From the NCBI RefSeq assembly GCF_051903065.1, contig NZ_CP178438.1: a stretch of DNA of 64,000 nucleotides. One strand, 5' to 3'. Position numbers and translations under genes: made by a program. This document shows positions 43,439-45,349 of the stretch, one piece after another. How positions within the stretch are numbered: position 1 is the first letter of the stretch; each line of letters starts with the position of its first letter. The DNA is from Escherichia coli. GTDB lineage: Bacteria > Pseudomonadota > Gammaproteobacteria > Enterobacterales > Enterobacteriaceae. The notes under the pieces are model-generated. The model saw nothing but the letters and a program-made list of their open reading frames with translations. It did not search any database and had not been told where the DNA came from.

Positions 43439-43921
43439 ATGACGAAGAAAAAAGCACATAAACCTGGTTCAGCGACCATCGCGCTTAACAAGCGCGCCCG
43501 TCACGAATACTTTATCGAAGAAGAGTTCGAAGCGGGACTTGCCCTGCAAGGCTGGGAAGTTAAATCCCTGCGCGCAGGAAAAGCCAATATCAGCGACAGC
43601 TACGTCCTTCTGCGTGACGGAGAGGCATTTCTGTTTGGCGCTAACATCACGCCAATGGCCGTGGCCTCCACGCATGTGGTGTGCGATCCTACCCGTACCC
43701 GCAAGTTACTTCTCAACCAGCGCGAACTGGACTCATTGTACGGTCGCGTCAATCGAGAAGGCTATACCGTAGTGGCGCTCTCCCTGTACTGGAAAAATGC
43801 CTGGTGCAAAGTGAAAATCGGCGTCGCCAAAGGTAAGAAACAGCACGATAAACGTTCAGATATCAAAGAGCGCGAATGGCAGGTGGATAAAGCGCGTATC
43901 ATGAAAAACGCCCACCGTTAA
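43439..43921 (+). CDS. smpB: SsrA-binding protein SmpB
   Basis: 160 aa ([25 protein letters not shown]...). Confidence 0.97.
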
Positions 43922-44135: not shown

Positions 44136-44498
44136 GGGGCTGATTCTGGATTCGACGGGATTTGCGAAACCCAAGGTGCATGCCGAGGGGCGGTTGGCCT
44201 CGTAAAAAGCCGCAAAAAATAGTCGCAAACGACGAAAACTACGCTTTAGCAGCTTAATAACCTGCTTAGAGCCCTCTCTCCCTAGCCTCCGCTCTTAGGA
44301 CGGGGATCAAGAGAGGTCAAACCCAAAAGAGATCGCGTGGAAGCCCTGCCTGGGGTTGAAGCGTTAAAACTTAATCAGGCTAGTTTGTTAGTGGCGTGTC
44401 CGTCCGCAGCTGGCAAGCGAATGTAAAGACTGACTAAGCATGTAGTACCGAGGATGTAGGAATTTCGGACGCGGGTTCAACTCCCGCCAGCTCCACCA
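44136..44498 (+). ncRNA. ssrA: tmRNA (transfer-messenger RNA)
   Basis: 363 nt from GGGGCTGATTCTGGATTCGACGGG to ...GGTTCAACTCCCGCCAGCTCCACCA; tag-ORF region present. Confidence 0.97.
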
Positions 44499-44508
44499 AA
44501 TAAATCAA

Positions 44509-44540
44509 GGGGTTACGTGAAAGCGTAGCCCCTTTTTCTT
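44509..44540 (+). terminator. intrinsic terminator downstream of ssrA
   Basis: Hairpin GGGGTTACG...CGTAGCCCC (one G:U) followed by TTTTTCTTT. Confidence 0.7.
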
Positions 44541-44621
44541 TGGTAGTGGCGGCAAAATGGCGACAGACTTTTGCGTCCATCTTGCCTGTCGCCATCTTGA
44601 AATCATGCAAAGAGGTTTCAC

Positions 44622-45104
44622 ATGGAAGAACTTCACTTTGTTTACATCAATGCAAATGGTCGTATCGGTGTTCACTCAATACAGAGCATCAGTTATAGCG
44701 AAAATCATATACAGGGCATTTGTAAGAACACCGATCGAATAAAAACCTTCCGAAAAGACCGCATTCTTAAACAGTACGATTCACCAGAACAAGCCATTCA
44801 GGAATGCGCGTCATTCCTCCCCGAAAACTACTCACATCTCACTAAGCAGTCTGGTCCGAAAAAAAATACATTCGATGTGTGCTTCACCGGATTTAAGAAA
44901 GCAGATAAAGAAAGATTGGTTGATAAGGCGAATGAACAAGGATTAACGGTAAGAACCTCTGTAACCCAAAGCCTTCAGATGCTCTGTTGCGGTTACAATG
45001 CAGGCCCATCAAAAGTATCGGCAGCCAGGATGAAAGGCACAATCATCATAGATGAGCCTGGCTTTATACATTTTCTTGAAACGGGTGAGATCCCAGATGA
45101 ATAA
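44622..45104 (+). CDS. hypothetical prophage cargo protein, WYL-like N-terminal domain plus BRCT-like C-terminal domain
   Basis: 160-aa ORF with AGAGG 10 nt upstream of ATG; N-terminal ...DRIKTFRKDRI resembles the WYL-domain RxFRxDRI strand; C-terminal FDVCFTGF...GLTV...GPSKVSAARMKGTIIIDEPGF resembles the LigA-type BRCT fold pattern. Confidence 0.6.
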   Translation: MEELHFVYINANGRIGVHSIQSISYSENHIQGICKNTDRIKTFRKDRILKQYDSPEQAIQECASFLPENYSHLTKQSGPKKNTFDVCFTGFKKADKERLVDKANEQGLTVRTSVTQSLQMLCCGYNAGPSKVSAARMKGTIIIDEPGFIHFLETGEIPDE

Positions 45105-45107
45105 AAA

Positions 45108-45125
45108 CCTGCCGTAGCAGGTTCT
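45108..45125. terminator. bidirectional terminator between the cargo gene and ogr
   Basis: Hairpin AACCTGC-CGTA-GCAGGTT flanked by A/T runs between convergent stops. Confidence 0.6.
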
Positions 45126-45130
45126 CTTTC

Positions 45131-45349
45131 TCAAAAATTCATATGCCCCTGACCACCTGGCAATGGATGTGGAGGGGCTGTAGCAATCAATGCAGGTGTC
45201 ACAATAAACCGGACCACTGTTTCATGGGTAACAAAAGTGCTCCCGCAGTTAATATTTTGGCACTGGCAGTAACGCTCTTTGGTGCTTTCTGTTACTTGAA
45301 AACTGCTCCTTGTGTGCGCCGCATGACCACACTTCGGACAATTCATCAT
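45131..45349 (-). CDS. ogr: Ogr-type zinc-finger late-gene activator
   Basis: From ATG at 45349 (or 45346): MMNCPKCGHAAHTRSS...KERYCQCQNINCGSTF...PHPLPGGQ matches the P2 Ogr CxxC-N22-CxxxxC pattern; ORF-track GTG extension rejected. Confidence 0.85.
   Translation of the reverse strand: MMNCPKCGHAAHTRSSFQVTESTKERYCQCQNINCGSTFVTHETVVRFIVTPALIATAPPHPLPGGQGHMNF

What the first reader, a model, noticed from the sequence alone, without database searches (positions are those of the whole stretch)
44557..44595. 10-bp perfect inverted repeat between the ssrA terminator and the cargo gene
ATGGCGACAG ... CTGTCGCCAT with a 19-bp spacer lies 25-65 bp upstream of the cargo gene start codon, where its promoter or operator should be. 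It could be a repressor or IHF/Int binding site, or part of the prophage attachment region.
Basis: seen in the sequence. Interest (0 to 1): 0.35.

Follow-up and report, generated by a model that had tools for sequence, protein, structure and literature searches.

The report
Integrase arm sites at prophage junction
The inverted repeat is real, but its two halves are copies of the short motif that this P2/186-like prophage's integrase is predicted to grip on the arms of its attachment site, so it is an ordinary part of the prophage end and not a switch for the neighbouring cargo gene.

Summary
The repeat is exactly as described: ATGGCGACAG at 44557-44566 and CTGTCGCCAT at 44586-44595, with a 19-bp spacer. 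It extends to 13 of 14 matches. A 10-bp inverted repeat alone is no more than chance gives, about 1.9 per window.

Its core is the 8-mer TGGCGRCA. This occurs three times here: 44547 (+), 44558 (+) and 44587 (-). The tandem pair, 11 bp apart, lies on both arms of the intact attP of related ssrA-integrating phages (Cartapus, Fels-2, SEN8, MLG42). It also lies at the distal junction of an E. coli prophage with an identical repeat region. It matches the published 186-type integrase arm-binding consensus, tgccGCCActt / YAYCGCCAYTY.

Coliphage 186 has the same layout on its B/ogr-side arm: two tandem sites plus one inverted.

- **Left arm:** the conserved second arm-type site.
- **Right arm:** a lineage-specific inverted third copy. 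It is absent from diverged cargo homologues and is as polymorphic as the flanking DNA.

No sigma-70 promoter, IHF consensus or CI-operator similarity is found in the repeat. The Int-site / attachment-region guess is supported; the cargo promoter/operator guess is not. This is a known kind of feature and of low interest.

The parts
44454..44498 (+). Core identity region: the 3' 45 bp of ssrA shared by host and phage (ATGTAGGAATTTCGG...CCAGCTCCACCA). Strand exchange happens somewhere inside it.
   Evidence: The same 45 bp is present in the intact attP of phage Cartapus and is repeated at the distal junction of the prophage in E. coli FDAARGOS_1337 (L009 11733-11777). The tmRNA gene is 44136-44498.
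44503..44515 (+). Match to the IHF consensus WATCAANNNNTTR (AATCAAGGGGTTA), overlapping the left stem of the terminator.
   Evidence: It is the only match in 44440-44640 on either strand. In 186 an IHF footprint is annotated between the core and the B-side arm sites. This is a consensus match only.
44507..44534 (+). Phage-borne intrinsic terminator hairpin. It ends ssrA in the lysogen and, in the free phage, would end the int (lysogenic) operon.
   Evidence: Terminator scan. The hairpin is present in the attP of Cartapus, Fels-2, SEN8, MLG42 and ESSI-2. The equivalent in 186 is annotated 'predicted terminator of lysogenic operon'.
44547..44554 (+). Arm-type integrase site 1 (TGGCGGCA) of the ogr-side arm.
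   Evidence: Among 21 haplotypes only one position varies, and the change (G>A) keeps the motif.
44558..44565 (+). Arm-type integrase site 2 (TGGCGACA). It lies 11 bp after site 1 and forms the core of the left arm of the inverted repeat (44557-44566).
   Evidence: The tandem pair is conserved in every related attP and junction examined. Homology with Fels-2, SopEPhi, RE2010, SEN8 and the Klebsiella phages ends at 44566-44572.
44587..44594 (-). Third copy of the motif (TGGCGACA on the minus strand). It forms the core of the right arm of the inverted repeat (44586-44595) and is a probable accessory arm-type site.
   Evidence: Its flanks match site 2 at 13/14 positions. 186 has an inverted third site on the same arm. 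It is restricted to the E. coli cargo lineage. Three of its 10 positions segregate, and all three changes break the motif.
44572..44579 (-). Possible degenerate fourth copy (TGGACGCA on the minus strand, 6/8), part of the CCATCTTG direct repeat at 44577-84 and 44592-99.
   Evidence: (I7, D3). Positions 44573, 44578 and 44579 are polymorphic, so this is probably not functional.
44622..45104 (+). Cargo gene: a 160-aa protein with a weak BRCT-like C-terminal half. It is inserted between the arm sites and the ogr terminator.
   Evidence: ORF. Pfam BRCT E=1e-3, below the cut-off. phrog_2561 E=2e-77. PADLOC PDC-S48 C-terminus E=2e-7. Fels-2 and SEN8 lack the gene; there the ogr terminator follows the arm sites directly.
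45131..45349 (-). ogr (late-gene activator), the first conserved phage gene after the attachment arm.
   Evidence: ORF. Annotated as ogr/Delta-like in L009 3076-3294 and in Cartapus and Fels-2.

Best explanation
The repeat is part of the ogr-side arm of the attachment site of a Fels-2/186-type P2-like prophage integrated into ssrA. In P2/186 map convention this is the left or 'P' arm, now part of the ssrA-proximal junction.

The arm carries three copies of TGGCGRCA. This is the motif bound by the N-terminal (arm-binding) domain of 186-type tyrosine integrases. Two copies are tandem and 11 bp apart (44547, 44558). One is inverted (44587). The right arm is the inverted third site.

Proposed mechanism: Int monomers bind these arm sites with their N-terminal domains and the core in the ssrA 3' end with their other domains. 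The intervening DNA is bent, probably by IHF, to build the intasome for integration and excision. The tandem pair is the essential, conserved element. The inverted copy is an accessory site, as in coliphage 186. It should bind Int because it is identical to site 2 over 10 bp, but it is under weak or no constraint.

What is shown: motif identity, position on both arms, conservation, co-variation with integrase type, and the 186 precedent. What is inferred: physical Int binding and any role of the third site.
For: 1. Motif on both arms of attP. The pair TGGCGRCA-N3-TGGCGGCA lies just downstream of int or its cargo, about 135-145 bp before the core. The pair TGGCGGCA-AAA-TGGCGRCA lies about 48 bp after the ssrA 3' end. 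This holds in Cartapus, Fels-2, SEN8 and MLG42, and in three further intact attP among IMG/VR contigs at fixed distances.

2. Distal junction. In E. coli FDAARGOS_1337, which is 100% identical over 44430-45140, the distal junction carries the int-side pair followed by the duplicated ssrA 3' end.

3. Literature. Nilsson et al. [quoted passage not shown] They give the 186-type consensus as tgccGCCActt, the reverse complement of TGGCGGCA, and place Fels-2 and SopEPhi at ssrA.

4. The 186 record. The RefSeq record for 186 annotates predicted Int arm-type sites with consensus YAYCGCCAYTY, 3 on the B side and 2 on the int side. A scan with that consensus finds exactly two tandem plus one inverted on the B/ogr side (GAATGGCGGTG-7 bp-TACCGCCACTT) and two tandem on the int side.

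5. Co-variation with the integrase. ESSI-2 uses the same ssrA core but has P2-type repeats (TGTCCAC) on both arms. Its Int has D14/R16 where the TGGCG-type phages and 186 have E14/Y16. These match two of the three discriminator positions named in PMC3448106.

6. Third sites are common on this arm. There is a direct third copy 12-14 nt after the pair in about 20 of 86 distinct contexts with unrelated flanks. There are inverted third copies in several 186-like lineages, one at a spacing similar to the window's.

7. Constraint on the pair. Among 21 haplotypes the pair has 1 segregating site in 19 bp, and that change preserves the motif. The spacer has 5 in 19.
Against: - No experiment shows Int binding to these sequences. 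Even in 186 the sites are annotated as 'predicted'.
- The right arm shows no excess conservation: 3 of 10 positions segregate, and all three changes break the motif.
- The right arm is absent from phages carrying cargo homologues at 59-74% identity and from Klebsiella relatives. A third site is therefore not required in those lineages.
- Its spacing to site 2 is 32 bp centre to centre. This differs from 186 (18 bp) and from the direct third site of Fels-2 (about 19-21 bp).
- A third copy within 60 bp has a chance probability of about 0.02, which is small but not negligible.
Confidence: 0.62

Rival explanations
1. Only the left arm matters. Sites 1 and 2 are the functional integrase arm sites. 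The right arm is a fortuitous or relic copy, perhaps from a local inverted duplication that came in with the cargo module. It has no role, so the inverted repeat as a dyad has no function.
For: - The right arm is as polymorphic as the surrounding non-coding DNA: 3/10 positions against 5/19 and 5/26.
- It is absent from diverged cargo-bearing relatives, from Klebsiella phages and from the viable phage MLG42.
- Inverted third sites are visibly decayed in several 186-like lineages.
- The flank similarity of 13/14 is what a duplication would leave behind.
Against: - The sequence is identical to site 2 over 10 bp, so Int should bind it whether or not that matters.
- Third sites recur on this arm in many independent contexts, which suggests some benefit.
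- The polymorphism sample is small and includes decaying prophages.
Confidence: 0.3
2. The repeat is an operator or promoter element for the cargo gene, bound by a phage or host regulator.
For: It lies 26-65 bp upstream of the cargo ATG with a Shine-Dalgarno sequence (AAGAGG) in between. No other promoter is evident, so the gene's control is unexplained.
Against: - No sigma-70-like promoter in 44500-44622. The best hexamer pair is 7/12, with a -10 lacking A2 and T6.
- No Ogr-type TGT-N12-ACA element.
- The left arm is conserved in phages that have no cargo gene, such as Fels-2 and SEN8.
- The right arm is not conserved with the cargo gene.
- The half-site is absent from the cI-apl operator region of the same prophage type.
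- The cargo protein has no recognisable DNA-binding regulator domain.
Confidence: 0.05
3. The repeat acts at the RNA level, as a hairpin in a 5' leader of the cargo mRNA or in ssrA read-through transcripts.
For: RNA 44536-44625 folds to -27.4 kcal/mol, pairing the site 1-2 region with the right arm. The z-score is -2.0, and 5 of 200 shuffles fold as well.
Against: - A strong terminator sits immediately upstream, and no promoter lies between it and the repeat.
- The z-score is marginal.
- Natural variants carry uncompensated changes in the right arm.
- There is no T-run after the stem.
Confidence: 0.03

Closest known systems
Predicted Int arm-type recognition sites of coliphage 186 attP (consensus YAYCGCCAYTY; 3 sites on the B side, 2 on the int side)
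   Same: - The core motif is the same (CGCCA / TGGCG).
- Both have tandem pairs with 11-bp spacing on both arms.
- On the B/ogr-side arm both have two tandem sites plus one inverted.
- The order is the same: core, terminator, arm sites, B/ogr.
- The integrase is of the same type: Cartapus Int is 55% identical to 186 Int and shares E14/Y16.
   Different: - The motif variant is TGGCGRCA rather than TGGCGRTR.
- The inverted site is 32 bp rather than 18 bp from site 2, centre to centre.
- The core is the ssrA 3' end rather than tRNA-Ile.
- A cargo gene separates the arm sites from the ogr terminator.
attP of the Fels-2 / SopEPhi group (ssrA-integrating Peduoviridae)
   Same: - The core is identical.
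- The phage-borne terminator is the same.
- Tandem sites 1-2 are identical.
- Sequence identity to the window is 97-98% up to 44566.
- Nilsson et al. 2011 group them with the 186-type arm repeats.
   Different: - In Fels-2 and SEN8 the third copy is direct and starts 19 bp after site 2.
- It abuts the ogr terminator.
- There is no cargo gene.
P2 Int arm-binding sites (consensus tgTGGaCa) and lambda P/P' arm-type sites
   Same: The logic is the same: a heterobivalent tyrosine integrase, repeated arm sites on both sides of the core, accessory bending proteins, and a variable number of sites per arm. Lambda has P1-P2 and P'1-P'3 (established knowledge). ESSI-2 shows the P2-type motif at the same ssrA core.
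   Different: The motif sequence differs. P2 has two direct repeats per arm. In lambda the extra site has a demonstrated differential role in integration versus excision; no such role has been tested here.

Membership tests
Arm-type binding sites of a 186-type (Peduoviridae) tyrosine integrase | Sequence matches the family consensus (tgccGCCActt; YAYCGCCAYTY) | tested here: met
   The reverse complements of the three sites are TGCCGCCA, TGTCGCCA and TGTCGCCA. They match tgccGCCA at 8/8, 7/8 and 7/8 positions, and the 11-mer 186 consensus at 9-10/11.
Arm-type binding sites of a 186-type (Peduoviridae) tyrosine integrase | Repeats present on both sides of the core in attP, at a distance from it | tested here: met
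   Pairs are found on both arms in Cartapus, Fels-2, SEN8 and MLG42 and in three IMG/VR attP. A pair lies at the distal junction of the identical E. coli prophage. The int-side arm of the window's own prophage lies outside the window.
Arm-type binding sites of a 186-type (Peduoviridae) tyrosine integrase | At least two direct repeats per arm, in helical phase | tested here: met
   Sites 1 and 2 start 11 bp apart (44547, 44558). The 11-bp spacing is the same on the int-side arm and in 186.
Arm-type binding sites of a 186-type (Peduoviridae) tyrosine integrase | Motif type co-varies with the integrase N-terminal domain | tested here: met
   ESSI-2 has the same core but P2-type TGTCCAC repeats, and its Int has D14/R16. 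The TGGCG-type phages and 186 have E14/Y16 (discriminator positions from PMC3448106). There is only one contrasting phage, so this is limited.
Arm-type binding sites of a 186-type (Peduoviridae) tyrosine integrase | Purifying selection on the sites | tested here: inconclusive
   The tandem pair has 1 segregating site in 19 bp, and it preserves the motif. The inverted third copy has 3 in 10, all breaking the motif, which is no better than the flanks. The pair meets the criterion; the right arm does not.
Arm-type binding sites of a 186-type (Peduoviridae) tyrosine integrase | Physical binding by Int and a requirement in recombination | not testable with these tools
   This needs EMSA or footprinting and integration/excision assays. 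In the 186 record the sites are labelled 'predicted'.
Promoter/operator of the adjacent cargo gene | Recognisable promoter hexamers overlapping or next to the repeat | tested here: not met
   The consensus scan finds none on the + strand in 44500-44622. The best pair is 7/12, TTGCCT-18-TGCAAA. There is no TGT-N12-ACA element.
Promoter/operator of the adjacent cargo gene | Repeat travels with the regulated gene across homologues | tested here: not met
   Cargo homologues at 59-74% identity keep the tandem pair but lack the right arm. Phages without the cargo keep the left arm.
IHF binding site | Match to WATCAANNNNTTR | tested here: not met
   There is no match within 44557-44595. The only match nearby is at 44503-44515.
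Phage CI/Apl operator | Same half-site present at the cI-apl switch region | tested here: not met
   Nothing within 2 mismatches of either arm occurs in L009 7600-7800, the cI-apl intergenic region of a prophage with an identical repeat.
Intrinsic terminator / structured RNA | Stable stem with a short loop and a T-run, or covariation | tested here: not met
   The loop is 19 nt and no T-run follows. The fold z-score is -2.0. Variants in the right arm are uncompensated.

The most novel reading that the evidence does not exclude
The inverted third Int site was placed, together with the cargo module, directly over the cargo gene's otherwise promoter-less upstream region. Int occupancy, or intasome assembly at induction, would then gate cargo expression. 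Alternatively, the unusual 32-bp inverted geometry could bias integration versus excision differently from 186 and Fels-2. Either would couple a moron gene to the recombination machinery.
Probability: 0.06. Interest if true: 0.4.

Novelty: new member of a known kind. Interest (0 to 1): 0.13.

Why it matters
The main value is for annotation.

- It fixes the anatomy of the ssrA-proximal prophage junction: core, phage-borne terminator, then integrase arm sites.
- It shows that sequence after 44498 is phage DNA.
- It marks the exact boundary (after 44566) at which cargo modules are exchanged in this phage group.
- It removes a candidate regulatory site for the cargo gene, whose expression signal stays unknown.

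For people engineering P2/186-type integrases, the survey shows that the third arm site varies between lineages. It can be direct, inverted, variably spaced or absent. This suggests it is accessory.

Tried and rejected
- Looked for the other prophage end in the window. It is not there: the ssrA 3' end occurs once, and the window ends in the capsid genes. Cartapus attP and the FDAARGOS_1337 distal junction were used instead. In that strain the prophage is a deletion remnant, and the region just after int is cargo, not the arm. The arm was found further on.
- Sigma-70 promoter scans, the Ogr-type activator site and the IHF consensus found nothing within the repeat.
- A CI/Apl operator comparison found no similarity.
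- The RNA hairpin idea gave only a marginal z-score.
- Cargo protein domain searches gave only a weak BRCT-like signal and no DNA-binding regulator domain (Pfam, PADLOC, PHROGs, PDB sequence search). A self-regulated operator is therefore unlikely.
- Supplementary Fig. S4 of PMC3448106, which lists the repeats per phage, is not held.
- A second literature search found no paper with footprints of a Fels-2-type Int.

Full report
**Observation**

The window carries smpB (43439-43921) and the tmRNA gene ssrA (44136-44498). After these come a terminator hairpin (44507-44534), the reported repeat, a 160-aa ORF (44622-45104), and then on the minus strand ogr, gpD, gpU and the tape-measure gene. This is a P2-like prophage integrated into ssrA.

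The repeat is exactly as described: ATGGCGACAG at 44557-44566 and CTGTCGCCAT at 44586-44595, with a 19-bp spacer. It extends to 13 of 14 matches.

A perfect 10-bp inverted repeat with a spacer of up to 30 bp is expected about 1.9 times in a window of this size and composition. The repeat alone is therefore not remarkable.

**What the arms are**

The core of both arms is the 8-mer TGGCGRCA. It occurs three times within 48 bp: 44547-54 (+), 44558-65 (+) and 44587-94 (-).

BLAST against phage genomes shows that the region from the ssrA 3' end up to 44566-44572 is shared at 93-98% identity with Fels-2, SopEPhi, RE2010, SEN8 and Klebsiella phages. The cargo gene is shared only with Cartapus, 500465-1 and, at 71%, Yersinia phage MLG42.

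In phage genomes with an intact attP, the same tandem pair lies on both sides of the core:
- On the int side, TGGCGRCA-N3-TGGCGGCA lies about 135 bp before the ssrA-like core.
- On the ogr side, TGGCGGCA-AAA-TGGCGRCA lies about 48 bp after the CCA end.

Three more intact attP among IMG/VR contigs have pairs at the same distances.

E. coli FDAARGOS_1337 is 100% identical to the window over 44430-45140. Its distal junction carries the int-side pair followed by the duplicated ssrA 3' end.

**Link to known integrase sites**

Nilsson et al. [quoted passage not shown] They also report that P2-like phages fall into a P2 type (tgTGGaCa) and a 186 type (tgccGCCActt). The 186-type consensus is the reverse complement of TGGCGGCA.

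The RefSeq record of 186 annotates 'predicted Int arm-type recognition sequences; consensus YAYCGCCAYTY; 3 sites to left of attP and 2 sites to right'. Scanning 186 with that consensus gives exactly two tandem sites plus one inverted site on the B/ogr side (GAATGGCGGTG, 7 bp, TACCGCCACTT) and two tandem sites on the int side. The 'two direct plus one inverted' layout seen in the window therefore has a direct precedent.

The integrases of Cartapus, Fels-2 and MLG42 align with 186 Int and share E14/Y16. ESSI-2 uses the same ssrA core but has TGTCCAC (P2-type) repeats on both arms, and its Int has D14/R16. This agrees with two of the three discriminator positions proposed in PMC3448106.

**How conserved each half is**

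A survey anchored on the tandem pair gave 86 distinct contexts.
- A third direct copy lies 12-14 nt after the pair in about 20 contexts with unrelated flanks. These mostly sit just before the ogr terminator and have no cargo.
- An inverted third copy at +22 occurs only in the window's cargo lineage.

A 186-type survey shows inverted third sites in several lineages, decayed versions in others, and one at a spacing close to the window's.

A sample anchored on the cargo protein is unbiased with respect to the repeat. It gave 21 haplotypes of the E. coli lineage. Segregating sites per segment:

| Segment | Segregating sites | Note |
|---|---|---|
| Tandem pair (44547-44565) | 1 of 19 | change preserves the motif |
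| Spacer (44567-44585) | 5 of 19 | |
| Right arm (44586-44595) | 3 of 10 | all three break the motif |
| 44596-44621 | 5 of 26 | |

Cargo homologues at 59-74% identity keep the pair but have no right arm.

The left arm is therefore a conserved functional element. The right arm is a lineage-specific copy with no detectable constraint.

**Alternatives tested**

- Promoter: there is no sigma-70-like promoter between the terminator and the ATG (best 7/12) and no Ogr-type TGT-N12-ACA site.
- IHF: the repeat has no IHF consensus. The only one nearby is at 44503-44515, a position consistent with the IHF footprint annotated in 186.
- Repressor: the half-site is absent from the cI-apl switch region of the same prophage type.
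- RNA structure: an RNA fold of the region is only marginally better than shuffles (z -2.0), and a terminator lies immediately upstream.
- Self-regulation: the cargo protein has only a weak BRCT-like domain and no regulator domain.

**Mechanism, and what is inferred**

Comparative sequence evidence shows that the repeat lies in the ogr-side arm of the attachment site and consists of 186-type arm-site motifs.

The following is inferred from established knowledge of heterobivalent tyrosine integrases (lambda, P2, 186). Int N-terminal domains bind these sites while the catalytic and core-binding domains act on the ssrA 3' core. IHF bending would help assemble the intasome.

The right arm is identical to site 2 over 10 bp, so it should bind Int. 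Whether that matters for integration or excision is unknown. The evidence leans towards an accessory or dispensable role.

**Verdict**

The cargo promoter/operator, IHF and repressor alternatives are not. This is another instance of a known kind of feature, and interest is low.

Noticed in passing
window 44622-45104: The cargo protein (160 aa) belongs to phrog_2561. Public records call it 'DNA ligase', 'putative exonuclease' or 'levansucrase regulator'. It has only a weak BRCT-like C-terminal half (Pfam E=1e-3, below the cut-off). That half resembles the C-terminus of the PADLOC defence candidate PDC-S48 (E=2e-7). There is no ligase catalytic domain. No promoter for it could be identified.
   Followed up: partly
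window 44566/44567; L007 (Klebsiella phage), L002 (Fels-2), IMG/VR loci: Homology between phages of several genera breaks immediately after arm site 2. The slot between the arm sites and the ogr terminator holds different cargo in different lineages: the BRCT-like gene, a small signal-peptide protein in Klebsiella phages, other unrelated sequences, or nothing. It looks like a cargo hot spot bounded by the integrase sites.
   Followed up: partly
L001 1176-2381 (Cartapus); L009 9803-11536 (E. coli FDAARGOS_1337): There is a second cargo slot on the other arm, between int and the int-side arm sites. It holds a RES-domain protein in Cartapus and an 'anti-phage dCTP deaminase' in FDAARGOS_1337. Both flanks of attP therefore carry defence-like cargo.
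   Followed up: no
window 44503-44515: AATCAAGGGGTTA matches the IHF consensus WATCAANNNNTTR. It lies right after the ssrA CCA end and overlaps the terminator stem. It is the only match in 200 bp. In Fels-2 the equivalent sequence has one mismatch.
   Followed up: partly
window 44499-44534: The terminator that ends ssrA in this lysogen is supplied by the phage. It is conserved inside the attP of phages from Escherichia, Salmonella, Yersinia, Klebsiella and Cronobacter. In the free phage it would end the cI-int operon.
   Followed up: partly
window 44572-44599: On the minus strand, CAAGATGGCGACAG and CAAGATGGACGCAA form a 15-bp-spaced imperfect tandem (seen on the + strand as the CCATCTTG direct repeat). 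This hints that the inverted copy arose with a degenerate partner. The positions involved are polymorphic.
   Followed up: partly
L009 3363-4976 (E. coli FDAARGOS_1337): In this strain the prophage is a remnant. gpD is fused to the replication endonuclease gene and roughly 20 kb of late genes are deleted. Both att junctions and the repeat are still intact.
   Followed up: no
whole window: TGGCGRCA occurs 19 times, against 7.3 expected from shuffles. Most copies are inside coding regions on either side of ssrA. This is probably codon and composition bias rather than integrase sites.
   Followed up: no
CP019275.1 (phages collection, 37,446 bp, labelled plasmid p13P477T-2): This record is deposited as a circular plasmid. 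It contains ssrA, this prophage type with many frameshifted genes, and a chromosomal gene fragment. It looks like a mis-assembled or excised chromosomal segment rather than a plasmid.
   Followed up: no
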